Shown piece after piece: positions 128 to 12,800 of a stretch of DNA of 29,481 nt. The stretch covers positions 1 through 29,481 of the forward strand of contig JBEQAY010000009.1 in the NCBI GenBank assembly GCA_041640075.1, read 5' to 3'. Position 1 is the stretch's first letter, and every line of letters begins with the position of its first letter. The notes under the pieces were generated by a model, which worked only from the letters and a program-made list of their open reading frames with translations, made no database searches and was not told the DNA's origin. The position numbers and the translations under genes are program-made. The DNA is from Candidatus Nanohaloarchaea archaeon. GTDB lineage: Archaea > Nanohalarchaeota > Nanosalinia > Nanosalinales > Nanosalinaceae.

Positions 128-280
128 GTCTTAATCCGATATAAATGCATTTATTGGGAATTTTTTTAAGTGGTAAAGAATTTTTGAGTATGTATCGGCG
201 AATATTGCCAAATCAACCAAAGTGTTTTTATTAGTTAGTGACAACACTATGTTATATGGTTGGAGGTGTACGTGAAAACT

Positions 281-2122
281 ATGGCTCAAGCCTTAGAAGA
301 ATTAGTTGAAGGTCCGGAAGAATTTTTAAACGAAGATTTCTATGGAGAAGCTCTATTTGGAGAGGAAGGCGATGAGCCAGATGACCATGATTTTGAAATA
401 TTTGACCATGAAGGAGAACCAGAGAACAATGACTTTCTATTAGATGAGGAGTTAGATGGAATTTTCGGAGAAGGTTACAACGACGAATTTGAGTACGAGT
501 TTAATGAGGAAGACCTTGCACAAATAGGTGACGTCCAAGACCATGCTCACGAATACCAAGTTCAAGACCCAATCAATTTTGAAGAATATCAAGAACATAT
601 AGAACCATTAGGACCTGGCGAAATCCCAGAATTAGGTGAAGTAGGTTTAGGTAATGACGAACTTGAGGCCTTACCCGATAATCTAACGAGAAATGATCAA
701 GTTAGGGAAGTAATTCCAAACTTTGTCAGAGAAATGAATATTTCTAGAGAAGAGGCTCTTAAGGATCTTGAGTTATTGGAAAAACTTGATTCTAATATAG
801 ACCATGTTGAAGTCAAAGATGATGAAAGAAGACGGAGGAAAGAAGCTGCTAAAAAACTTTACAGAGAGAAGAAAAGATTTTTAGAGCATATCCAGGAAAC
901 TTATGAGGTTTCGCCGTTTATTGTAGGTGCTGCACCAGCAATTGAATCTGAAATGGGCTTATCTACCGAGGAATTTGTACACATATTTAATGGGGGAGAT
1001 TCCAGCAGAGTTATTGGAGAAGGATTTCATTCTCAGGGAGTTGTTGGAGGACAATATGACCAGGGTGTTGAGAAGCTTGAAAGTTTATCGAGGAAAGAAG
1101 GAAAATTTGAAACAGATATAGACTACGAAAATACAGTTAGAAGAGCCCTTGGAGAAGAATTATTCAATGATTTAGATCTTAAGGATAAAATTAGAGAGGC
1201 GAAGATGGGAGATAGAGATGTTGAAGCAGCTATATTGGAAGATGAATTTAACCAGTTGATTGGGGAGTTAATGCAGGAGGATCCTGAAAAAGGGCAGGAG
1301 ATGATAGATAAGAGAAATGAGTTGAAGGCAGAAATTAATGAAGAAAAGAGAACCGAGGCGCTCAAGTATGCGATGAAAACCGGTATTTCGGATCCAGAGA
1401 TTGGGGAAAAAGCATATAGACAGATAATGGAGTCCGAAAACCCTGATCTTGGGTTTTTGAGACAGGACAATGTCGAAAGTATGCTTGACTCTTTGGCCGA
1501 AGAACACCTTTCAGATGATTGTTCTGCTTATCATGAGGCGAAAAGATTAGCAGATAACATGGATGGTAGAGAAGTGGAGTTTGAGTTGTATGATAAGAGC
1601 TTTGAAAACATGCCTTATAAGGAGAATAGAAATCTTCCGTGTACCTTCCCCGGAAGCTCTCATGCTAAATCTGTTGCTTTTACGAGCTACATGCTTGATC
1701 CTGCTACACAGGTAGGAAAGATTGAAACGGACAAAGGGGATGGTGTAGCTTTGATGAAATTAGTCGAATATGAAGGAGACGGATTCCTTTATGTTCACTC
1801 TGTTGAGGCAGACAAAGGAGAAAATATTGCCAGCAACAAAGAAATGGCTAGAGAGATAAAGAATCAGATAGAGAAATATGCTGAGGAGATCAGCCAGTAC
1901 AGCTTTGAGGTCGATGATGACCGAGAGATCGAGATGGAAGGTATAATGTACTGTATGAGCCGTCATAACCACGGTACGGCTTCCAGCTTCCAAAGTGCGT
2001 TAAGAGACTACGAAGATCCTGAAATAGAGACAAAAGAATTAGAACATGCCGGAGTTAGACACCAAGGCTTCGACCACAACATTGAAACCGGTGTGAGAGT
2101 GTATGAGAAGAACTTGGGTTAA
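281..2122 (+). CDS. Large acidic hypothetical protein (~613 aa; TTG at 260 is an alternative start)
   Basis: Long ORF with a D/E-rich low-complexity N-terminus, a helical middle and an alpha/beta-looking C-terminal domain. No family recognised. Confidence 0.8.
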   Translation: MAQALEELVEGPEEFLNEDFYGEALFGEEGDEPDDHDFEIFDHEGEPENNDFLLDEELDGIFGEGYNDEFEYEFNEEDLAQIGDVQDHAHEYQVQDPINFEEYQEHIEPLGPGEIPELGEVGLGNDELEALPDNLTRNDQVREVIPNFVREMNISREEALKDLELLEKLDSNIDHVEVKDDERRRRKEAAKKLYREKKRFLEHIQETYEVSPFIVGAAPAIESEMGLSTEEFVHIFNGGDSSRVIGEGFHSQGVVGGQYDQGVEKLESLSRKEGKFETDIDYENTVRRALGEELFNDLDLKDKIREAKMGDRDVEAAILEDEFNQLIGELMQEDPEKGQEMIDKRNELKAEINEEKRTEALKYAMKTGISDPEIGEKAYRQIMESENPDLGFLRQDNVESMLDSLAEEHLSDDCSAYHEAKRLADNMDGREVEFELYDKSFENMPYKENRNLPCTFPGSSHAKSVAFTSYMLDPATQVGKIETDKGDGVALMKLVEYEGDGFLYVHSVEADKGENIASNKEMAREIKNQIEKYAEEISQYSFEVDDDREIEMEGIMYCMSRHNHGTASSFQSALRDYEDPEIETKELEHAGVRHQGFDHNIETGVRVYEKNLG

Positions 2123-2448: not shown

Positions 2449-5400
2449 GTAGGGTTTGACCATTACATATTTTGCATTCAAACTTAGGCTTAGCCTGATA
2501 TGGTCTACTCTGTTTCAGCTTTGCTGAGACGTGGAGCATATCAAGCTGGTTGCCTGAAGTTGGATTGCGACGATATCCAGTTAGTGGATGGCTCGGTTCG
2601 AGAAGCCGATGAAGGACATGGCAAGCTGTGATAAGCTTGGGCGAGGCGCATGCAGCCTTTGAGCCCAAGATTTCCGAATGTGAGTTAACACACGCCGTTT
2701 CGACGGTGTATCCCGAGAGGGAGGGTAACGCGGTGAATTGAAACATCTTAGTAGCCGTAGGAACAAAAATCAACCGAGATTCCCTTAGTAGCGGCGAGCG
2801 GAAGGGGAAATGGCATAAACTGAACGCAGTTCCGAGAGGATCTGTGGATGTGGTTTGGGCCGTCTTTCTGGACTGAATGGTTTAGCCGAACTCTTGCTGG
2901 AAAGCAGGACCATAGAGAGTGATAGTCTCGTAGGTTGTAACCAAGACGTCCTTCGACGTGCCCCAAGTAGCGTGGGTTGGAAATCCTGCGTGAAGATGGG
3001 AGGCACTTTCCTTCCAATGCTAAATACTTCTCGAGTCCGATAGCGCACTAAGTACCGTGAGGGAAAGCTGAAAAGTACCCCTAGAAAGGGGGTGAAAAGA
3101 GCCTCAAACTAACTGGTTATAGGCTAGACAGGGCGTTCAAGCGTCGATATCTGTGAAAGAACTTTCCGAGAGGTCTTAGTATAAATCAGGTGGAGCAGCG
3201 TCCTGTCATCCGTTTTGAAAAACGGGGCAGGGAGTGTACCTCCGTGGCGAGGCTAACCACCGTTTCGGTGGGGAGTCATAGCGAAAGCAAGAAGACCGCA
3301 GCAGTTTTACTGTGAGGGTCCTCGTGTTAACGTGCGAGAAGTCACCGCGGTACTATCCGAAGCTGGTCGATCCTGGCCTGGGCAGGTTGAAGCGGCGCGA
3401 AAGCTCCGTGGAGGACCGCAAGAGGTGCTGCGATACAAGCGCTCTCGTGACCTGGGTCAAGGGGTGAAATGTCAATCGAGATCAGCAATGGCTGGTTCCT
3501 TTCGAAATAGGCCGAAGTCTAGCCTCGAGCGAGGTGGTTGCACAGGTAAAGCGACTGATTCCGATCCCTGTAGGGTTACCTACAGGCCGGAGTCAAACTC
3601 TGAACTGTGTAACGCCGTAGACCTCGGGAGTGAGGGATGGCGGGTAAGCTGCCATTCCGAGAGGGAAACAACCCAGAGCAAGGTTAAGGCCCCTAATTCC
3701 TGACTAAGTGTCATTGGAGGATGTCGCGGTTCTCAGACAGTGGGGAGGTTAGCTTAGAAGCAGCTACCCTTTAAAGATAGCGTAACAGCTCACCCATTGA
3801 GAACTGTGGCGCCGTAAATGGACGGGGCTCAAGTCAGGAGCCGAGACCTTGCCGCCGAGCATTAGCTTGGTGGATAGGAAGGCGCTCCGCATGGGCGGAA
3901 GCATGGCTGTGAAGTCGTGTGGACCGTGTGGAGATGAAGATCCTGCCGGCAGTATCATCGTAAAAAGAGATGCGAATTCTCTTCGTCGCAAGGATAAGGG
4001 TTCCTCTGCAATGATTTTCAACAGAGGGTTAGTCGGTCCTAAACCGGACCGTAATTCGAATCCGGTGAATAGGGAAACAGGTTAATATTCCTGTACCTCC
4101 TCACATTTACTGACGATTCGGGATAATGGTAGCTGCGCCTTCGCGCAGTCGAAACCGTTAAACCGGGCGAGCGTAATGCTTCGACCCCGGCGAACCGGTG
4201 ATCGGCCTGGGAATAATCCCGGGTTGCCACGATTCCTGGATCCCATGAAAAGGTGTGAGAGACCGTACCCAGAACCAGCACAGGTATCCTGGCTTAACAG
4301 GCTAAGACGTATCGGGTTTAATGCAGCTTAGGGAATTCGGCAAGTTAGCCCCGTACCTTCGGTATATGGGGTGCCTATCGTCTCGATACGATAGGTCTCA
4401 GTGACTAGGGAAGCTCGACTGTTTACTAAAAACGTAGCCGACTGCTAGTCCGAAAGGATTTGTATAGTCGGCGACTCTTGCCCAGTGCCAGTACCTGAAA
4501 TCTCCGTCCAAGGAGTAGAAGGGCTGGTAAACGGCGGCGGTAACTATGACCGTCTTAAGGTAGCGTAGTCCCTTGCCAATTAATTGTTGGCCCGCATTAA
4601 TAGGGAAACGAGGCTTCTACTGTCCCAAGCTGTAGCCCGGTGAACCCGCCGTACCGGCGCATAGGCCGGTGACTCCCGGTGGGAAGCGAAGACCCTTTGA
4701 ACCTTTACTGCAGTCTATCGTTGCTGCGGGGTTCCAAGTGTGAAGTGTAGGTAGAAGACGTTACAGAGACGCATGCGCCAGCATGTCGCCCAGTCGATCA
4801 TGGGACACTACCCACTTGGAACCCTGCGGCTTGACCTCTACGGAGGGACAGCGTTAGCTGGGCAGTTTAACTGGGGCGGTATCCATCTGATAATAAATCA
4901 GATGGGTCCAAAGGTAGGCTCAGACCGGTCAGAAATCGGTCGTAGAGTACAAAGGCAAAAGCCTGCCTGACTGGTCTCTTGTTAGCAGAGGGACCAGGCG
5001 CGAAAGCGTGGCTTAGCGAACGCCTACAGCCAAATAGTGAGGCTTAGGCCTGACGAAAAAGGTACTCAAGGGATAACTGGATTGTCTGAGGCGCGAGTTC
5101 ACATCGACCCTCAGGCTTGTTACTTCGATGTCGGCTCTCCGTATCCTGGCTGTGCAACAGCAGCCAAGGGTGAGGGTGTTCACCTATTAAAACGGATCGT
5201 GAGCTGGGTTTAGATCGGCGTGAGCCAGATCTGTTGCTATCTGCCGGGAGCGTTTACACGGTCTGAGAGGAAAGTTCGGACAGTACGAAAGGAACCCCGA
5301 ACTGAGGCCTCTGGTGTATCTGTCATCCGAGAGGGTGGGCAGAGTAGCTACGCCTCACAGATGTAAAAGCTGAAAGCATCTAAGCTTGAAAGTCTCCTCA

Positions 5401-5596
5401 AAACGAGACCGTTTCCGCTCTTGTACAAGACAAGTTGATAGAGTGGCGGTGTAAGATCCAAGGCAACGAGGATTTCAGCCGACCACTACTAATCGCGGGT
5501 TCAATCTAATGGACGGCGACCAGCTTGAGCTCTAACACAAGTGTTTAGAGACCAAGCAGGCTAAGTCCTGAGAACAACGTATTGGTCAAACCCTAC
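2449..5596 (+). repeat. Long-range inverted repeats forming the pre-23S processing stem
   Basis: GTAGGGTTTGACCA (2449-2462) pairs with TGGTCAAACCCTAC (5583-5596). GGCTTAGCCTG (2487-2497) pairs with CAGGCTAAGTC (5557-5567). TCAAGCTGGTTGCC (2541-2554) pairs with GGCGACCAGCTTGA (5515-5528). Confidence 0.85.
2560..5509 (+). rRNA. rrl: 23S ribosomal RNA (archaeal); ends approximate
   Basis: Universal LSU motifs are present: GAATTGAAACATCTTAGTA, AGTACCGTGAGGGAAAG, GTPase centre TTAGAAGCAGC, GGTAACTATGAC..TAAGGTAGC, PTC GGGATAAC and TCGATGTCGGCTC, and the SRL. Terminal helix is TTGGATTG/CAATCTAA. Length ~2950 nt. Confidence 0.98.
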
Positions 5597-5696
5597 CTCT
5601 TTTTCCATACGCAACTTTCTATATTCTACAACAATTACACTAAATTATGTACAGTTAATCAAACCTGATTTAATTTTAATCATTGAATAACATTCT

Positions 5697-6219
5697 TGCT
5701 GGGAGATGGTTTGACCGTCCCCGCTGGTAGACACACTCGGCTTGGCGACAAGACGAGATATATCAATCAGAGGTCTACCGAGTGAGGAAAGTCCTGACAC
5801 CCACTCCGAGCTCCTTGAGGTCGGAGTTTGAGAAGATTCCTGCGAAGGGATTTTCGAGTTATGTGTGGCGGATGCAAATCCGTGGGCCAAGAGGTCGCAC
5901 CAAGATCTTCCGTAACCTCTGTAATATGAGGACCGGAGTCTTGAAACCTGCAGCAGAAACGACACGTCCAGTGCCGATGATCGTGATCGGACAACAAAGA
6001 ACACGGCTCGAGACCTTGTACGTCTCGGCGGTGCAAAAAAGTCCGTGAATCCTTGAAGCACCTGGGATCGTTGAAACGAGGCAGGACACACGGTGCAAGC
6101 GCCAAAGCAGCGTGCAAGTGCGAACTCGCAGAGTTCGACTCTTCAGAGAAGAGCTCTGCTCTTCGCCAAGTTAAATGCGGTTGTAGAAACAGAATCAGGC
6201 TTACTACCGTCACCCAGCA
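5697..6219 (+). ncRNA. rnpB: RNase P RNA (~520 nt)
   Basis: CR-I GAGGAAAGTCC (5784-5794), CR-II GCAGAAAC (5953-5960), CR-III TTGAAAC (6071-6077) and CR-V AACAGAATCAGGCTTA (6188-6203) are in order. P1 is TGCTGGGAGATGGT/ACCGTCACCCAGCA, P2 is TGACCG/CGGTTG and P3 is GGTAGAC/GTCTACC. Confidence 0.93.
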
Positions 6220-6311: not shown

Positions 6312-6482
6312 ATGGCAGGAAACCAGCAGCAAGGTGGAGCACTTCCTTCCTCACAGGGGGGACTGGTACAGTACTTCGACGCTGATTCAGGGTACGAGAT
6401 GGATCCCAAGACAGTAGTCATGATAACAGGAATGGTAGCTGTACTGGAACTTGTACTTCAATCCGGTATGCTGCCGATTTAA
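6312..6482 (+). CDS. secG: Preprotein translocase subunit Sec61beta (archaeal SecG)
   Basis: 56 aa, MAGNQQQGGALPSSQGGLVQYFD...MDPKTVV, followed by one C-terminal TM helix. It matches the Sec61beta pattern xGLxxYF...P. The longer 6093 start overlaps the RNase P RNA. Confidence 0.88.
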   Translation: MAGNQQQGGALPSSQGGLVQYFDADSGYEMDPKTVVMITGMVAVLELVLQSGMLPI

Positions 6483-6491
6483 ACCAGTGAA

Positions 6492-6621
6492 GGGCCCGTA
6501 GCTCAGCTTGGACAGAGCGATCGGCTTCTATCAAAGTTCTGAAAGTTTGATCCAAAGAAAGCGCTTTCAGAAAAACAGGGAAGATACCGATCGGTCGAGG
6601 GTTCAAATCCCTCCGGGTCCG
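6492..6621 (+). tRNA. tRNA-Arg(UCU) with a 55-nt intron (6531..6585) at 37/38
   Basis: GGGCCCG-TA-GCTC..GAGC-G-ATCGG-CT-TCT-A|intron|A-CCGAT..GAGGG-TTCAAAT-CCCTC-CGGGTCC-G. Central helix CTTC/GAAG with 3-nt bulge AT|A. A20 and G73 Arg identity elements are present. Confidence 0.93.
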
Positions 6622-6656: not shown

Positions 6657-7214
6657 ATGAAACCTTTCGATAGGATATACGAGGAGATATCCAATAAAAG
6701 AAGGTCGAAGGCTGCGGAGAACCTTCCTGGAATCGAAAAACTTGATGATGGCTGGGGATTTGACAGGACTGTATTCCGTATTGAAACAGAGAAGTACGGC
6801 GAAGAATACGAGGGAAAGGTTCTGAAAATCGGTGCAGGAGCAGAGAACGCCAGAACGGCAAACAAGAAAGAACTGGAGACGTGGATGGCTTTAAAAAACG
6901 ATAAAGAGCTAGGCAAACATTTTTGCCCTATAAGAGATCGGGGAAAAAACTTCAAATGGATAATAATGGATTATGCTCCACCGGTTAAGTCTTTCCTATC
7001 ACGAATCAAGTCTAGAAGGAAACAGAAAAAGATAGAAGACACTCTCGCAGAAGTTGAGGAGTACCTAGACTTGAAACATGAAAACATGGGAGTCCACAGG
7101 AATAGAGGTGTAGTCTTCGTTGACTACCCCTGGGGAGGAAATTTTGTAAGAGAAAAGGATGAAGGGAATCTAGGGAAACTCCTGAACAGGATTAACAGGA
7201 TTGCTGAATCATGA
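6657..7214 (+). CDS. Small protein-kinase-like fold protein
   Basis: Kinase-like motifs occur in order: GWGFDRTVF (Gly loop), VLKI (catalytic Lys), NKKE (helix C Glu), WIIMDY (hinge), DLKHEN (catalytic loop) and FVDY (DFG position). Confidence 0.7.
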   Translation: MKPFDRIYEEISNKRRSKAAENLPGIEKLDDGWGFDRTVFRIETEKYGEEYEGKVLKIGAGAENARTANKKELETWMALKNDKELGKHFCPIRDRGKNFKWIIMDYAPPVKSFLSRIKSRRKQKKIEDTLAEVEEYLDLKHENMGVHRNRGVVFVDYPWGGNFVREKDEGNLGKLLNRINRIAES

Positions 7215-7987
7215 AAGAAGTAAAATCTCCTCAGGAGGCCGAAGCACTGGTACAGAAACTTTCTTCAGACATGGGAATCCACAGAAACCCGAGGAAAGGT
7301 ACTTTGAACGCACCTGACAAAATCCTATCCAATTTTTCAACTCAGAGGTCTGTCCTCGTGGACGAAGTTTTCCCCGACGAGTTCTCGCTTCACCAGACCC
7401 ATGAAAAAATACTGGAAAATACTGAAGACTTGTTAAAACATGGTAAACCTGTGATATCGGTCGGTGGCGACCACTCCGTAAGTTTCCCTGTTTTAAAAGC
7501 TATGAAGGAACTTTTTCCCGAGCTTAAACTGGTCTGGCTGGATTCTCATCTTGACCTAAAGGAGAAAGTAGGTGAAAATATTTCTCACGATGTTGTTGTC
7601 CGTGAACTTCTCGAAAACGGGTTTGAGCTGGATGATATACATTTTATAGGCATCACGAAAAAAGATGACGACGAAAAAAAGTTTCTGGAAGGACGTGAAC
7701 CAAGAATTTACAGACCGAATGAACTGGAGAAGTTCAGAAGAGAGTTCAGTTCAGGCGAACAACCTGTTTATCTCTCCGTTGATATCGATGTGCTGAAAGA
7801 GGATGAGGCACCGGGAACCGGGTATCCTGATGGAGAACTTGAAACAGAAGACGTTCTGGATCTGATAGAGTATATATCCGCCGATCACGGAGATCTCGTG
7901 GAGGTTGCGCCACCTTTTGATCAGGATAACAGGACTGTAGAGAAAGCACAGAAGATTCTGCAGAAAATTGTGGAAACAGCTAGCTGA
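7211..7987 (+). CDS. Ureohydrolase (arginase/agmatinase/formiminoglutamase family)
   Basis: Mn-binding motifs GGDHS, DSHLD and SVDIDVL, plus APGTG and DLVEVAP. ATGA overlap with the upstream ORF. Confidence 0.9.
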   Translation: MKEVKSPQEAEALVQKLSSDMGIHRNPRKGTLNAPDKILSNFSTQRSVLVDEVFPDEFSLHQTHEKILENTEDLLKHGKPVISVGGDHSVSFPVLKAMKELFPELKLVWLDSHLDLKEKVGENISHDVVVRELLENGFELDDIHFIGITKKDDDEKKFLEGREPRIYRPNELEKFRREFSSGEQPVYLSVDIDVLKEDEAPGTGYPDGELETEDVLDLIEYISADHGDLVEVAPPFDQDNRTVEKAQKILQKIVETAS

Positions 7988-8510
7988 GTCTTTCTCGGAG
8001 TATTTCAAGAGTTTCAGATGCCCGACTGTCGTCTACAACCAGGTGTGTATCCTCTCGACAGGATATCACATGGTCAACGTTGACCCCTTCAGCCGCCAGA
8101 GAGGAAAGTACAAACTCCAGCACCCCAGGCGTGCTCTCAAGCTCCACAGGACTTTCAAGCGACACCAGAGCTTTCTCACCCCCATCCAGAACAGAGGTAA
8201 AACCATTATATGTTCTTGCAGAGACGATACATTCATCTAAATCTTCCTTGACTACTTTTACACCAGTTTTAAGTTCCATACTGGTATCCTCCAGAACTTC
8301 GCTGACTTTATCCCTCCTCTCCCGTCTTAATCTGGAAACATGGTCTTGATAACGGGATAAAGCCGCCTTGACAGCATCAACAGACTCAAGACCTTCTTCA
8401 CGACAGATTTTACGTGCCAGCGCACTGTAATTAACGACATCCTCGGCTAAGGCCTCCTTAATGTATGGCCTCTTTGACACGTAGAGCTCAACTTTTGCAG
8501 CTGTCGACAT
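7980..8510 (-). CDS. Archaeal ACT-domain protein with an N-terminal helix-turn-helix-like region; probable amino-acid-sensing regulator
   Basis: N-terminal PYIKEALAEDVVNYSALARKI. C-terminal ACT signature TPGVLEFVLSSLAAEGVNVDHVISCREDTHLVV. Confidence 0.75.
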   Translation of the reverse strand: MSTAAKVELYVSKRPYIKEALAEDVVNYSALARKICREEGLESVDAVKAALSRYQDHVSRLRRERRDKVSEVLEDTSMELKTGVKVVKEDLDECIVSARTYNGFTSVLDGGEKALVSLESPVELESTPGVLEFVLSSLAAEGVNVDHVISCREDTHLVVDDSRASETLEILRERLS

Positions 8511-8512
8511 AG

Positions 8513-8556
8513 AAAATGTTTAATTTAAAACATTTTTGTATTTTTTGTTGCAAAAA
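8513..8556. promoter_or_regulatory. Two palindromes (candidate operators) in the divergent ACT-gene/argG promoter
   Basis: AAAATGTTT-N6-AAACATTTT (8513-8536) and TTTTTG-N3-CAAAAA (8542-8556). Confidence 0.45.
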
Positions 8557-8618
8557 TCTGGTTCACCGATTAATAACTCCCACACCAAAACTCGATCAAC
8601 GTGAACAACAAATGAAAC

Positions 8619-9884
8619 TTGGAACTAAAGGTGGATACGAAAGACTCTATCGACTATCTAGCAAAACCCTCTAACATCGACACAGTCGTTCTTCTATACT
8701 CAGGAGGATTGGACACCTCCATAATGGTAAAATACATCCAGGAAGAATACAACGCCGACGTCGTAACTCTCACTCTGGATCTCGGCCAGCCAGGCGTCGA
8801 CCTTGAAGTGACGAAGCAGAAAGCTCTGGATATCGGCGCAGAAAAGGCCTTCGTCCTGGATGTGAAAGAAGAGTTCTCCGAGAACTTCATCGCGAAGAGC
8901 ATCAAGGCTAACGGACTCTATCAGGGCGAATACCCGCTTTCAACCGCGATCGCACGGTACCTTGTATGTGAGAAAGCAGTAGAGATCGCAGATGAAGTAG
9001 ACGCCGACGCAGTAGCTCACGGAGCGACAGGAAAAGGTAATGACCAGGTGCGTTTCGAGGCAGGAATCCTCTCGCTTGATCCTGACATCAAGCTTCTGGC
9101 ACCGGTCCGTGAATGGAGTATGACCCGTGACAAAGAACTGGATTACGCAAAGGAACACGAAATTCCTGTCGAGGCCTCAGAAGATTCCCCTTACTCGACT
9201 GATGAGAACCTCTGGGGTAAGAGTTCAGAGTGTGGGCCTCTGGAAGATCCTGCAACGGAGCCGCCGGAAGACGTCTTCGAGTTCGTGACCTATCCGGAGA
9301 ATGCTCCTGAAGAACCAGAATATATTGAGATCGAGTTCGAAGCAGGCGTTCCAAAGGCCTTGAATGGTGAAGAACTTCCGCTACATGAACTCATAGAAGA
9401 GCTGAATTCTTTAGCCGGAAAACACGGTGTAGGCATCATCGACATGATGGAGGATCGTGTAGTAGGGCTGAAATCACGTGAAGTGTACGAATGTCCGGCA
9501 GCCGTAACACTGATCGAGGCGCATCAGGAACTGGAAAAATTTGTCTCGACAAAACATGAGAACCAGTTTAAGGCCTCAGTGGACCAGAAATGGGCTGAGT
9601 ACGCGTACAATGGGTTGTGGTTTGATCCTGTGATGGACCACCTCGAAGGATTTATTGATTCGATGAACGAGAACGTCTCCGGAACAGTCGAGTTAAAGCT
9701 GTACAAATGTTCCGTTCAGGTCACCGGCCGAGAATCAGAAGAAGCCTTGTACGACCACGACTTGGCGAGCTACGAGGAAGGAGAGACCTTCAACCAGGAA
9801 GCCAGTCCTGGATTCATCCAGCTTCACTCGCTCCAAACAAAGCTGAGCAACGAGATATCGGACAAAGAAGGAGGTGGATCTTAG
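8619..9884 (+). CDS. argG: Argininosuccinate synthase
   Basis: LLYSGGLDTS, YPLSTAIAR, HGATGKGNDQVRFE, YSTDENLWG and KSREVYECPA motifs. TTG start. Confidence 0.97.
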   Translation: MELKVDTKDSIDYLAKPSNIDTVVLLYSGGLDTSIMVKYIQEEYNADVVTLTLDLGQPGVDLEVTKQKALDIGAEKAFVLDVKEEFSENFIAKSIKANGLYQGEYPLSTAIARYLVCEKAVEIADEVDADAVAHGATGKGNDQVRFEAGILSLDPDIKLLAPVREWSMTRDKELDYAKEHEIPVEASEDSPYSTDENLWGKSSECGPLEDPATEPPEDVFEFVTYPENAPEEPEYIEIEFEAGVPKALNGEELPLHELIEELNSLAGKHGVGIIDMMEDRVVGLKSREVYECPAAVTLIEAHQELEKFVSTKHENQFKASVDQKWAEYAYNGLWFDPVMDHLEGFIDSMNENVSGTVELKLYKCSVQVTGRESEEALYDHDLASYEEGETFNQEASPGFIQLHSLQTKLSNEISDKEGGGS

Positions 9885-11146
9885 TGGTCCTCTGGAGCGA
9901 GGACCCAACCTCTTCTTTAACACAACAGTACACCGAGGAAAGTAAGGAACTAGAGCAGAAACTCCTACCCTATGACATCATAGGAAATCTGGCGCACGTC
10001 AAGATGCTGGAGAAACAGGGATACCTCGAGAAAGAAGAATTAGAAGATATAGAGAAGGCCTTGAAAGAGATCTACGGGAAAAAACCTGAAGTGGATGCGG
10101 AGGACGTCCACACGTTCGTCGAGGAGAAAGTAACAGAGAAGACGGAAGCTGGAAAAAAGATGCATACAGGGCGTTCCCGTAACGACCAGGTAGCGGTCGA
10201 TACACATCTCTTTATGAAAGAGGCTAGTATAGAAATCGCAGAAAAAGGCCTTGAGCTTGTAAAGGCTCTGGAAAAATTCGGGAAAGAGGAAAATAACCTA
10301 ATACCTGGTTATACCCATCAGCAACAGGCTATGCCTTCAAGTACAGGCCTCTGGGCCTCGAGCTTCGTCGACGCATTAGTTGATGATCTGAAACTGCTGA
10401 AATCAAGCTACAAAGTCTTTGATCAGTCCCCTCTAGGAGCTGCAGCCGGTTACGGAACTTCTCTGGATATCGACCGCGAGTACACTGCCGAGCTTCTAGG
10501 CTTTGATTCTGTCCAGGAGAACCCGGTTTATTCCGTGAACCGTGGAAAACATGAGTTAATGCTTGTTCAGGCCTTGAATCAGGTTATGCTGGATATCGGA
10601 AAGCTTTCCGAAGACATCATCAACTTCTCCGAGGCTCAGGAAATTTTCCAGATTTCGAATGAGTTTACGACCGGCTCCAGCATCATGCCTCAGAAAGAAA
10701 ACCCTGATGTGCTTGAAATCGCACGTGGGAAGAGTAAAGAGCTGAACGCAAATACTCAGGCTATATATGGCGTTATCTCGAAGCTTCCGTCTGGTTACAA
10801 CCGTGATACACAGTTGACGAAGAAAAATCTGTTTGAGGCCGTAGAAACAGTACTTGAAACTCTCGAGATTATGGAAGAGCTGGTTTCAGGCCTTGAAGCG
10901 GTTCAGAACTTTGATCTGAAAGAGGAGATCTTTGCTGCTCATACTGCGAATCAGAAGGTCGAATCCGATGTTCCTTTCCGTGAGGCCTATTCTCAGGTGA
11001 AAGAGGAGCAAAATTATGTGAAAAACGAGGAGGTTAAGGAGCCGAAAAATCAAAGTTTTGAAGGCCTGGAAGAGTTCTGGCAGAGTGAGAAAGAGGAGTT
11101 TGAACATATGAAGGCCTCACTGCTTGGAAACAGTTTTGAAGCTTGA
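9884..11146 (+). CDS. argH: Argininosuccinate lyase
   Basis: EDVH, HTGRSRNDQV, PGYTHQQQA, SPLGAAAGYG and GSSIMPQKENPD (fumarase superfamily signature). The GTG start at 9884 follows SD GGAGGTG and overlaps the argG stop. Confidence 0.95.
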   Translation: MVLWSEDPTSSLTQQYTEESKELEQKLLPYDIIGNLAHVKMLEKQGYLEKEELEDIEKALKEIYGKKPEVDAEDVHTFVEEKVTEKTEAGKKMHTGRSRNDQVAVDTHLFMKEASIEIAEKGLELVKALEKFGKEENNLIPGYTHQQQAMPSSTGLWASSFVDALVDDLKLLKSSYKVFDQSPLGAAAGYGTSLDIDREYTAELLGFDSVQENPVYSVNRGKHELMLVQALNQVMLDIGKLSEDIINFSEAQEIFQISNEFTTGSSIMPQKENPDVLEIARGKSKELNANTQAIYGVISKLPSGYNRDTQLTKKNLFEAVETVLETLEIMEELVSGLEAVQNFDLKEEIFAAHTANQKVESDVPFREAYSQVKEEQNYVKNEEVKEPKNQSFEGLEEFWQSEKEEFEHMKASLLGNSFEA

Positions 11147-11162
11147 CGGGGACAGTGGTAGT

Positions 11163-12800
11163 ATGAAGCAAGTCAAAAAAAAGTTGGCCGATGAGCTCTC
11201 CGAAAAACTCGAAGTAGAAATAGATTCAGAGGATATCGAGAGGCCTGAACCAGAACACGGAGACTTTGCCTACCCGGTCATGCAGGCAGCATCCGAGTTA
11301 GGCGAGAACCCGCGCAAGTTAGCGGAGAAAACCGCCGGCGAGCTTGAAGACTCAGATCTGGTCGAATCCGTAGACGTAGCAGGTCCAGGATACCTCAACT
11401 TTAATCTGAACAAAAAGGCCTTCAGTGAAAAAATACTGGAAGTCCTCGAGAGCGAGAACTTTGGTTTCGAAGATAAAGACGAGAAAGCTCTCGTCGAATT
11501 TTCGTGCCCGAATCTGGCGAAGCCTATGCACATCGGCCACGTACGTAACAACTGTATAGGCGATTCTCTACAGCGTATCATGCGTTTCGTAGGCTACGAC
11601 GTTACCTCAGAGAACTACATCGGTGACTGGGGCACCAAACACGGCCAGGTAATCTATGCATACAAGAAATGGGGCTCGAAAGAGGAATTCGAAGAAGCTC
11701 CTATGGAGCATATGTACAGCCTCTACGTCAAGTTCCACGATGAAGCAACGGAAGAAGATGAGAAAAAGGCCCGTGAATGGTCTAAAAAGATCGAGGAAGG
11801 AGATAAAGAAGCTATACGTATCTGGAAGATGTTCCGACAAGCGACAATAGATTACAGCCAGAAAGAATACGAACGAATGAACATCAAGTTCGATCGGGTC
11901 ACAGGAGAGTCTGTAGTAGCAGATGAAGCCCATGAGATAGTAGATGAAGGCCTTGAGAAAGGAATTTTCGAGAAAGACGAGGACGGATCAGTTTACGTAG
12001 ACTTTGAAAATGAAGGCCTTCCAAGCACCGTTGTGAAACGTGATGACGGGGCTACGCTTTATCTAACCCGTGATATCGCGAATATCCGCAAGCGTGAGCG
12101 TGAAGGATTTGATTATAACTTCTATATCGTTGCTAACGAGCAGGATCTGCATTTCCAGCAGCTTTTCGACCTCGCCGAGCGTTTCGGTATAACCGAGATC
12201 CAGAGCGAACATATCTCCTACGGTATGCTACGGTTACAGGAAGGGTCTATGAGTTCTTCTAAAGGGAATATCATCCGTTTATCCGAGATAATCGATGAAG
12301 CAGTGGAAAAGGCCTCGGAACTTGAACAGCGAGATGTAAACAACGCCGAGGAAGTAGGCCTCGGAGCTATCAAGTACGCGAATCTTTCAGTTTCCCGTCC
12401 AAAGGACATAGAGTTTGACTGGGACGAGGTACTGGACTTTGAAGGAGATTCAGGTCCTTACCTCCAGTACACTAATGTTCGTGCAAAAAGCATTTTGCGT
12501 GAAACAGAAAAAGAAGGTGAAATGATAGGAAAGTTTGAGAAAGAGGAGTACCGTTTGCTGAAGAAGCTTTCAGAGTTCCCTGAAAAAGTTGAAAGTGCTG
12601 CGAACCAGCGTGAGCCAGCCAAAATCGCAAATTATATCTCAGATCTTTGTGAACAGTTCAATAGTTTCTATCACAGCTGCCAGGTTACTGGTGTAGAAGA
12701 GGACGTGGAGAAGCGGCTTGTAAAGCTTGTAGAGTTATTCGTTGATGTCACGGATGCTGGTTTGGATCTCCTTGGTATCGAGCCTCTTGAAGAGATGTGA
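11163..12800 (+). CDS. argS: Arginyl-tRNA synthetase
   Basis: HGDFA, VAGPGYLNF, PNLAKPMHIGHVRN (HIGH), NYIGDWG, MSSSKGN and GDSGPYLQY motifs, plus a DALR anticodon-binding domain. Confidence 0.97.
   Translation: MKQVKKKLADELSEKLEVEIDSEDIERPEPEHGDFAYPVMQAASELGENPRKLAEKTAGELEDSDLVESVDVAGPGYLNFNLNKKAFSEKILEVLESENFGFEDKDEKALVEFSCPNLAKPMHIGHVRNNCIGDSLQRIMRFVGYDVTSENYIGDWGTKHGQVIYAYKKWGSKEEFEEAPMEHMYSLYVKFHDEATEEDEKKAREWSKKIEEGDKEAIRIWKMFRQATIDYSQKEYERMNIKFDRVTGESVVADEAHEIVDEGLEKGIFEKDEDGSVYVDFENEGLPSTVVKRDDGATLYLTRDIANIRKREREGFDYNFYIVANEQDLHFQQLFDLAERFGITEIQSEHISYGMLRLQEGSMSSSKGNIIRLSEIIDEAVEKASELEQRDVNNAEEVGLGAIKYANLSVSRPKDIEFDWDEVLDFEGDSGPYLQYTNVRAKSILRETEKEGEMIGKFEKEEYRLLKKLSEFPEKVESAANQREPAKIANYISDLCEQFNSFYHSCQVTGVEEDVEKRLVKLVELFVDVTDAGLDLLGIEPLEEM

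What the first reader, a model, noticed from the sequence alone, without database searches (positions are those of the whole stretch)
5697..6219. RNase P RNA with an architecture that fits none of the known archaeal types (A, M, T)
Seen, folded by eye: all conserved regions are present but the periphery is rebuilt. (i) Between P5 (CACC 5798-5801 / GGTG 6092-6095) and P7 (TGTGT 5862-5866 / ACACA 6086-6090) there are ~60 nt forming two hairpins (5803-5827 and 5828-5857, the second with a GCGA tetraloop). Type A has only the short P6 strand here. (ii) After P8 (5868-5883) and P9 (5885-5896) there is an extra ~43-nt hairpin (5901-5943) before P10/11. (iii) P15 is a short closed hairpin GCGC-CAAAGCA-GCGT (6099-6113), so there is no P16/P17 and no P6 pseudoknot. 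(iv) A ~47-nt hairpin (6120-6166) lies between P15 and the CR-IV-like AAGTTAAATG, where bacteria have P15.1/P18. Established: archaeal RNase P RNAs lack P18, type M lacks P8, and bacterial type B replaces P6/P16/P17 with P5.1, P10.1 and P15.1. Inference: this may be a convergent 'B-like' archaeal RNase P RNA. An expanded ribozyme in a genome-reduced DPANN lineage could compensate for lost Rpp protein subunits.
Basis: partly seen in the sequence, partly recalled or inferred. Interest (0 to 1): 0.78.

Follow-up and report, generated by a model that had tools for sequence, protein, structure and literature searches.

The report
Nanohaloarchaeal RNase P with extra helix
This is the gene for the tRNA-trimming RNA enzyme (RNase P) of a tiny salt-loving archaeon; its whole family carries an extra conserved RNA helix at the place where Bacillus-type bacteria have one, which likely braces the RNA, while its usual five helper-protein genes are all still present.

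Summary
The RNA at 5697-6219 is the genome's single RNase P RNA, and the four described features exist. They are not equal. The helix between P9 and P11 (5901-5943) occurs in all 33 family RNAs found and in 0 of 9 sister-family RNAs. It covaries (122 of 128 cells paired; 34 coupled changes against 12-16 in slid controls) and keeps a conserved internal loop and A-rich tip. It sits where bacterial type B has P10.1, so it is likely a convergent brace. Loss of P6/P16/P17 is shared with sister families and known in archaea. The hairpins at J5/7 (22 of 32) and J15/2 (28 of 32) come and go independently, so there is no type-B L5.1-L15.1 strut. Pop5, Rpp30, Rpp21, Rpp29 and L7Ae are all encoded, which refutes compensation for lost proteins here. 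Side result: 8 of 50 family genomes, two of them single-contig, have HARP and no detectable RNA or Rpp genes, against two reviews. Earlier scan notes report other P6-less archaeal variants on other DNA, not this helix. Verdict: new structural variant of archaeal RNase P RNA.

The parts
5697..6219 (+). RNase P RNA gene (523 nt), single copy in the genome
   Evidence: RF00373 E 4e-9; one match in G000 with RF00373 and with model R1; P1 closes 5697-5710 with 6206-6219
5712..5783 (+). P2 5' strand (5712-5718, pairs with 6177-6183) and extended P3 (5723-5783)
   Evidence: sequence, fold, family comparison
5784..5801 (+). CR-I / P4 5' strand with bulged U, then P5 5' strand (5798-5801, pairs with 6092-6095)
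   Evidence: P4 pairs 31-32 of 32 per position, P5 31-32 of 32
5803..5855 (+). Two hairpins in J5/7 (5803-5827, 5832-5855): variable expansion segment
   Evidence: fold z -3.9; present in 22 of 32 family RNAs, at least 6 gains or losses on the tree
5863..5896 (+). P7 5' strand (5863-5867, pairs with 6087-6091), P8 (5868-5883), P9 (5885-5896)
   Evidence: P8 99% and P9 98% of cells paired with compensatory changes; P7 register
5901..5943 (+). Family-wide extra helix at the J10/11 position (P10.1-like): lower stem, internal loop 5912-5915 / 5932-5934, upper stem 5916-5919 / 5928-5931, A-rich tip 5920-5927
   Evidence: 33 of 33 family RNAs, 0 of 9 sister-family RNAs; covariation
5947..6085 (+). 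P11 (5947-5951 with 6081-6085), CR-II (about 5952-5965), long P12 region, CR-III (6072-6078)
   Evidence: aligned to the Rfam model at high posterior; P11 pairs 25-32 of 32
6099..6113 (+). Short closed P15; no L15 GGU, no P16/P17, no P6
   Evidence: same short form in 9 of 9 sister-family RNAs
6120..6166 (+). Hairpin in J15/2 (position of bacterial P15.1/P18): variable expansion segment
   Evidence: fold z -2.8; present in 28 of 32, CAAG-to-CR-IV span 18-119 nt
6169..6204 (+). CR-IV (6169-6176), P2 3' strand (6177-6183), no P19, CR-V and P4 3' strand (6195-6202)

Best explanation
This is the genome's only RNase P RNA, carrying an intact catalytic core and a family-wide extra helix before P11 that likely braces the specificity domain, and it likely works as an ordinary five-protein archaeal enzyme that cuts 5' leaders off precursor tRNAs. 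Shown: the conserved regions and P4; genes for all five proteins; the extra helix, its covariation and its restriction to this family; loss of P6/P16/P17 before the helix arose (sister families have the loss without the helix). Inferred: the helix was inserted at J10/11 in the family's ancestor, independently of bacterial type B P10.1. Its conserved unpaired bases (NYAA opposite GUA, and a UAAU tip) would form a loop-E-like stack and an A-minor contact that hold the P7-P11 junction and the CR-II/III T-loops in shape, as P10.1 does in type B. The docking partner is unidentified. The J5/7, J15/2, P19 and P12 additions are likely tolerated expansion segments, partly built from one recurring two-hairpin module.
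For: Helix in 32 of 32 RNAs analysed and in held-out G012 (89 bits with model R1). L9-to-CR-II distance is 61 nt here, against 15-16 nt in 9 of 9 sister-family RNAs and 15 nt in 17 of 18 parsed RNAs of another archaeal phylum. Upper stem 122 of 128 cells paired against 47-71 in slid registers; the two pairs below the loop 59 of 64 against 5-30; the true partner has the highest mutual information for 5 of 6 columns. 34 coupled changes on a tree built without the helix, against 12-16 slid. Unpaired bases conserved: NYAA 30 of 32, GUA 24 of 32, UAAU in the tip 25 of 32. An exact-motif scan of 185,579 genomes gave 18 hits: the 14 that are RNase P RNAs are archaeal records (10 labelled nanohaloarchaea, 4 'uncultured archaeon'), and the 4 bacterial hits lack all other conserved regions. 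Type B P10.1 follows P10 by one linker base and holds a loop E motif that stacks on the T-loop region (PMC1747187, passage); a UAA or GAA triloop A-minor junction is reported in its P10-P10.1 region (PMC3035441, passage). Five proteins present.
Against: No probing, structure or activity data. In the window's own RNA the 3' loop strand is degenerate (ACC for GUA), and in 7 of 32 RNAs the tip lacks UAAU. The strongest pair counts needed a one-base shift of 14 of 32 MAFFT rows by a sequence-motif rule; unshifted, the upper stem is 99 of 128, and a -1 slide gives 85. P10 is not conserved, unlike type B. No docking partner was found; the CR-II-to-CR-III span, which holds P12, the partner in type B (recalled), ranges from 31 to 150 nt. 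The tree is from 192 RNA columns with weak deep nodes.
Confidence: 0.65

Rival explanations
1. The extra helix is mainly a protein-docking arm (for L7Ae, Rpp21-Rpp29 or an unknown halophile-specific subunit), not an RNA-RNA brace.
For: Conserved unpaired bases can be protein sites. PMC12974513 (passage) says common archaeal expansions provide protein-binding sites. Rpp21-Rpp29 binds the specificity domain (PMC4919917, passage). No RNA partner was found.
Against: By eye the loop lacks the tandem G-A pairs of a kink-turn described in PMC5499556. The helix and its motif are kept in G014, G028 and G073, where Rpp21 and Rpp29 were not found.
Confidence: 0.15
2. All additions, the extra helix included, are neutral expansion segments that only need to fold out of the way.
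For: J5/7, J15/2, P19 and P12 behave this way. A related two-hairpin module also occurs in tRNA introns of this genome. The window's own internal loop is degenerate.
Against: The helix is never lost (33 of 33), while the other inserts change at least 3-6 times on the same tree. Its length is nearly fixed (P8-to-CR-II span 82-100 nt) and its unpaired bases are conserved.
Confidence: 0.12
3. A full bacterial type-B-like ribozyme (P5.1, P10.1, P15.1 struts) that compensates for lost protein subunits.
For: Positions of the inserts match those of type B (PMC7191817, passage). In genus g10 the single-contig genome G014 lacks detectable Rpp21 and Rpp29 while keeping the RNA, Pop5 and Rpp30.
Against: All five proteins are encoded in this genome. 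J5/7 and J15/2 hairpins are not co-required and have no conserved loops. No GGU in L15 in 32 of 32.
Confidence: 0.06

Closest known systems
Archaeal type A RNase P RNA (Rfam RF00373; Pyrococcus, Methanothermobacter)
   Same: CR-I to CR-V, P1-P5, P7-P9, P11, P12; five archaeal proteins encoded
   Different: No P6, P16/P17 or L15 loop; extra helix before P11; scores 38 bits against a gathering score of 84
Archaeal type M RNase P RNA (Methanococci, Archaeoglobus)
   Same: Lacks P6, P16 and the P15 substrate loop (definition in PMC4919922, passage)
   Different: P8 is present and covaries; extra helix present
Bacterial type B RNase P RNA (Bacillus subtilis, Geobacillus; Rfam RNaseP_bact_b)
   Same: No P6/P16/P17; a helix with a non-canonical internal loop inserted just 5' of P11 (P10.1 position; PMC1747187, PMC7191817)
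   Different: No fixed P5.1/P15.1 pair or L5.1-L15.1 strut, no L15 GGU, P10 not conserved, archaeal proteins; better Rfam match to the archaeal model
Bacterial type C RNase P RNA (Thermomicrobium, Sphaerobacter)
   Same: Precedent for P10.1 outside type B (PMC7191817, passage)
   Different: Type C keeps P6, P16 and P17 according to that paper; it is bacterial
RNase P RNAs of sister nanohaloarchaeal families (f3, f4)
   Same: Short closed P15 and P8 kept in 9 of 9; some have J5/7 or P19 hairpins
   Different: Ordinary 15-16 nt L9-to-CR-II segment; no extra helix and no J15/2 hairpin

Membership tests
RNase P RNA (ribonucleoprotein, archaeal) | Conserved regions CR-I to CR-V in order | tested here: met
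RNase P RNA (ribonucleoprotein, archaeal) | P4 pseudoknot with bulged U | tested here: met
   8 pairs, 31-32 of 32 each
RNase P RNA (ribonucleoprotein, archaeal) | Genes for Pop5, Rpp30, Rpp21, Rpp29, L7Ae | tested here: met
   41, 89, 71, 74 and 95 bits in G000, all over cut-off
RNase P RNA (ribonucleoprotein, archaeal) | Rfam RF00373 gathering score (84 bits) | tested here: not met
   38.1 bits, E 4e-9; only 7 of 50 family genomes pass it, so the model fits this family poorly
RNase P RNA (ribonucleoprotein, archaeal) | Pre-tRNA 5' cleavage | not testable with these tools
   needs an assay
Archaeal type A | P6 pseudoknot, P16/P17 and L15 loop | tested here: not met
   short closed P15, no GGU, at most 4 nt complementarity
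Archaeal type M | P8 absent | tested here: not met
   P8 99% paired in 32 RNAs
Archaeal type M | P6, P16 and L15 loop absent | tested here: met
   definition from PMC4919922
Archaeal type T | Most of the specificity domain (P11, CR-II/III, P12) absent | tested here: not met
   all present; definition from PMC7191817
Bacterial type B | P6, P16, P17 absent | tested here: met
Bacterial type B | P10.1 helix 5' of P11 | tested here: met
   position and covariation met; homology of sequence or 3D fold to type B P10.1 not tested
Bacterial type B | Fixed P5.1 and P15.1 with an L5.1-L15.1 contact | tested here: not met
   both present in only 21 of 32; loops and lengths not conserved; hallmark per PMC5066622
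Bacterial type B | GGU in L15 pairing with the tRNA 3' RCCA | tested here: not met
   0 of 32 L15 loops
Bacterial type B | L12 tetraloop docking into P10.1 (recalled feature) | not tested
   only P12 lengths were tabulated, CR-II-to-CR-III span 31-150 nt

The most novel reading that the evidence does not exclude
One nanohaloarchaeal family has reinvented the Bacillus-type P10.1 strut in an archaeal RNase P RNA, stabilising the specificity domain enough that one genus could drop Rpp21-Rpp29, while four other genera include species that threw out the ribozyme and all four dedicated proteins for HARP: the first protein-only RNase P archaea. The HARP-only part alone I put at about 0.8; the causal link between helix and protein loss is the weak step.
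Probability: 0.35. Interest if true: 0.82.

Novelty: new variant of a known kind. Interest (0 to 1): 0.58.

Why it matters
A 2026 survey (PMC12974513, main-text passages) lists P10.1 among bacterial expansions and says archaeal deletions of P6/P16/P17 generally come without added segments. This family is an exception: an archaeal RNA that gained a conserved helix at the P10.1 position, a test case for convergent RNA architecture. It also explains why standard annotation misses these genes (7 of 50 pass the Rfam cut-off). The family further holds natural variants with all five proteins, without Rpp21-Rpp29, and with HARP only, which makes RNA-to-protein replacement directly testable among close relatives. 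Two reviews (PMC6380272, PMC10941002) state that archaeal HARP always coexists with the RNA enzyme.

Tried and rejected
P6 pseudoknot or an ordinary P15-P16-P17 reading of 6099-6166: rejected. L5.1-L15.1 contact: rejected by independent presence and absence. The GCGA tetraloop as a conserved docking loop: by eye about half of the two-hairpin RNAs have a GNRA loop there and the rest do not, so not a family feature. A degenerate 5S rRNA at 5520-5610: rejected, two normal 5S genes lie on other contigs. The recurring module as a genome-wide mobile repeat: weak, 12 strict hits against 2-6 in five shuffles. An 11-base CR-I pattern search over 70 genomes was mostly chance hits; of 20 stretches fetched from it, 5 held an RNase P RNA. 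RNAalifold on the raw MAFFT alignment found only the upper stem of the helix. A search of the phylum of G060 covered one genome and found nothing. Sequencing runs: no RNA holder listed. The promoter scan is for bacterial promoters and was uninformative. The supplement of PMC12974513 could not be read; its element map of 298 archaeal RNAs might include a nanohaloarchaeon, which bears on the novelty claim. PMC1874661 was seen only as a search listing. R-scape was not available; shuffled, slid and tree-based controls were used instead.

Full report
Identity and setting. The stretch 5697-6219 lies between the 23S rRNA gene (2559-5510) and a Sec61-beta gene (6312-6482). Rfam RF00373 matches 5867-6215 at 38.1 bits, E 4e-9, below the gathering score of 84, and forces its 5' half onto P8/P9. 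CR-I to CR-V are in order and P1 closes the ends. It is the only match in the 0.98-Mb, 89% complete genome.

Homologue set. DNA and Rfam searches of 61 and 50 genomes gave 32 family RNAs that I parsed by anchors. A model of the P7-to-CR-II segment built from these 32 (R1) found 33 of 50 family genomes, the extra one (G012) at 89 bits, and 7 of 20 genomes of four sister families weakly. Nine sister-family RNAs were read in full. The core holds: P4 31-32 of 32 per pair, P5 31-32, P11 25-32; P8 99% and P9 98% of cells paired.

Feature (ii), the extra helix, is the real finding. It is in 32 of 32 parsed RNAs and in G012. The L9-to-CR-II distance is 61 nt here. It is 15-16 nt in 9 of 9 sister-family RNAs and 15 nt in 17 of 18 RNAs parsed from 30 loci of another archaeal phylum (12 not parsed, one mis-anchored). 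On the raw MAFFT alignment the upper stem is 77% paired with two-sided changes at all four pairs, and 0 of 500 shuffles reach the whole structure's covariation score; a -1 slide there still gives 85 of 128 against 99, because MAFFT put 14 rows one base off. Re-anchoring by a sequence-only rule (NYAA strand) gives 122 of 128 paired against 47-71 slid, and 59 of 64 for the two pairs below the loop against 5-30. On a tree built without the helix there are 34 coupled changes over six pairs against 12-16 slid. Unpaired bases are conserved too: NYAA in 30 of 32, GUA opposite in 24 of 32, UAAU in the tip in 25 of 32. The window's own 3' loop strand is degenerate (ACC). An exact-motif scan of 185,579 genomes returned 18 stretches: 14 RNase P RNAs, all archaeal records (10 labelled nanohaloarchaea, 4 uncultured archaeon), and 4 bacterial hits without other conserved regions. 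That scan finds only the exact motif, so it does not exclude unrelated helices at this site elsewhere.

Feature (iii), the short P15 without P6/P16/P17, is real but older and less special. All 32 family RNAs and 9 of 9 sister-family RNAs have it. No L15 loop has GGU, and complementarity to J5/7 is 1-4 nt. PMC12974513 (passages) calls such deletions frequent in archaea; PMC4919922 (passages) gives them for type M, which however lacks P8.

Features (i) and (iv) are expansion segments. J5/7 carries hairpins in 22 of 32 RNAs (at least 6 changes on the tree), J15/2 in 28 of 32 (3), P19 in 13 of 32 (5). Both J5/7 and J15/2 are filled in 21, only J15/2 in 7, only J5/7 in 1, neither in 3. They differ within genera, and loop sequences are not kept. 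[quoted passage not shown] A two-hairpin module with a purine-rich linker recurs at J5/7, P19, P12 and J15/2 (18 pattern hits in 38 RNAs, 3 spurious by eye), and by eye in at least three tRNA introns of this genome.

Proteins. Pop5 (C17), Rpp30 (C17, adjacent), Rpp21 (C20), Rpp29 (C1) and L7Ae (C8) all pass their Pfam cut-offs without internal stops; HARP was not found. PMC4919917 (passages) already lists all five for Nanohaloarchaeota. Compensation for lost proteins therefore fails for this genome. One point in its favour lies elsewhere: in genus g10, Rpp21 and Rpp29 were found in 1 of 5 genomes each and not in single-contig G014 (98% complete), by Pfam or by a family protein query, while its RNA, Pop5 and Rpp30 are present.

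How it likely works. Catalysis and tRNA-elbow recognition are inferred to be standard, from the intact P4 and CR-II/III and established RNase P biochemistry. Without an L15 GGU the enzyme would not pair with the tRNA 3' end, as in type M. The new helix enters between the P9 3' strand and P11, the place of type B P10.1, which follows P10 by one linker base and whose loop E motif supplies a stack on the T-loop region (PMC1747187, passages); UAA or GAA triloop A-minor contacts are reported in that region (PMC3035441, passages). I infer an analogous brace, at 0.65. That the internal loop is loop-E-like is my recalled structural reading, not a tool result. Independent origin is inferred from its absence in sister families and from the RNA's archaeal character; I did not compare it directly with type B sequences.

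HARP in the same family. Eight of 50 genomes have full-strength HARP (PF08745, 161-227 bits; two checked as TIGR03875). None of the eight has a match to RF00373, R1, Pop5, Rpp30, Rpp21 or Rpp29, and none of the 33 genomes with the RNA has HARP over the cut-off (two have 18-22 bit fragments). G010 and G018 are single contigs, 98% and 96% complete. Relaxed tests on five of the eight: RF00373 at E up to 1 gave nothing in three and 13-14 bit hits without CR-II in two; a CR-V pattern hit once, in G019, not followed up. A family Rpp30 query found nothing in four of four, and an Rpp29 query gave one E 0.04 hit in a 309-aa frame. In G018 and G019 the 23S and Sec61-beta genes are still neighbours, about 320 and 200 nt apart against about 830 here, with no conserved regions between; in G010 and G026 that neighbourhood is rearranged. 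PMC6380272 (passages) found HARP in no DPANN genome and never without RNP proteins in archaea; PMC10941002 (passages) says all HARP-encoding archaea also code the RNP.

Literature and novelty. Searches for RNase P with Nanohaloarchae/HARP, rnpB with Nanohaloarchae, HARP with DPANN, and RNase P with Nanohal gave 0, 0, 1 and 6 papers. Of the last six I read passages of two; neither passage set describes this RNA's structure; three were seen as listings only and one was not listed. PMC7191817 (passages) and PMC12974513 assign P10.1 to bacterial types. PMC5499556, PMC11143913 and PMC8172020 were read as passages and gave background only. The library lacks most subscription papers, and the supplement of PMC12974513 was unreadable, so prior notice is not excluded. 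Earlier scan notes describe other P6-less archaeal variants but not this helix.

Verdict. Observation confirmed, interpretation partly supported. A new structural variant of archaeal RNase P RNA, defined by a conserved P10.1-like helix with P8 kept and P6/P16/P17 lost. Interest 0.58; the HARP-only relatives deserve a follow-up of their own.

Noticed in passing
G010, G018, G019, G025, G026, G030, G063, G065 (HARP loci L073-L075; synteny loci L096-L099): Eight family genomes in four genera have HARP and no detectable RNase P RNA, Pop5, Rpp30, Rpp21 or Rpp29; two are single contigs. In genus g21 both states occur. This contradicts two reviews and would be the first HARP-only archaea in the papers I saw.
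   Followed up: partly
G014, G028, G073 (genus g10; loci L013, L010, L054): RNA, Pop5 and Rpp30 present, Rpp21 and Rpp29 not found, also in single-contig G014; P12 is short (CR-II-to-CR-III span 37-55 nt). G072 of the same genus has both proteins.
   Followed up: partly
window 5803-5855 and 6146-6166; G000 C13 near 3549, C7 intron of tRNA-Leu(TAA), C3 intron of tRNA-Arg(CCT): A recurring two-hairpin module with a purine-rich linker is found in several RNase P RNA insert sites across the family and in tRNA introns and tRNA flanks of this genome.
   Followed up: partly
L097 (G018), about 100 nt upstream of Sec61-beta: A short GC-richer stretch remains where the RNase P RNA gene lies in relatives; it may be a remnant.
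   Followed up: no
L148-L150 (family f4): Three sister-family RNAs share a J5/7 hairpin with a conserved loop sequence and long P8 arms, without any J15/2 hairpin.
   Followed up: no
L053 (G064): CR-IV and one P4 pair are divergent in this RNA.
   Followed up: no
window 5511-5610: A structured trailer after the 23S rRNA is conserved in relatives; it is not 5S rRNA (two 5S genes lie on C12 and C13) and is probably the 23S processing stem.
   Followed up: partly
window 6492-6621: Intron-containing tRNA-Arg(TCT); ARAGORN tRNA genes in the genome, 12 with introns of 42-121 nt, a few probably misnamed or false.
   Followed up: no
window 7211-12800: Arginase-family gene, argininosuccinate synthase, a lyase and arginyl-tRNA synthetase cluster together, an amino-acid pathway in a reduced symbiont genome.
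   Followed up: no
window 260-2122: A 620-aa ORF without any Pfam match directly upstream of the 23S rRNA gene; no 16S gene in the window.
   Followed up: no
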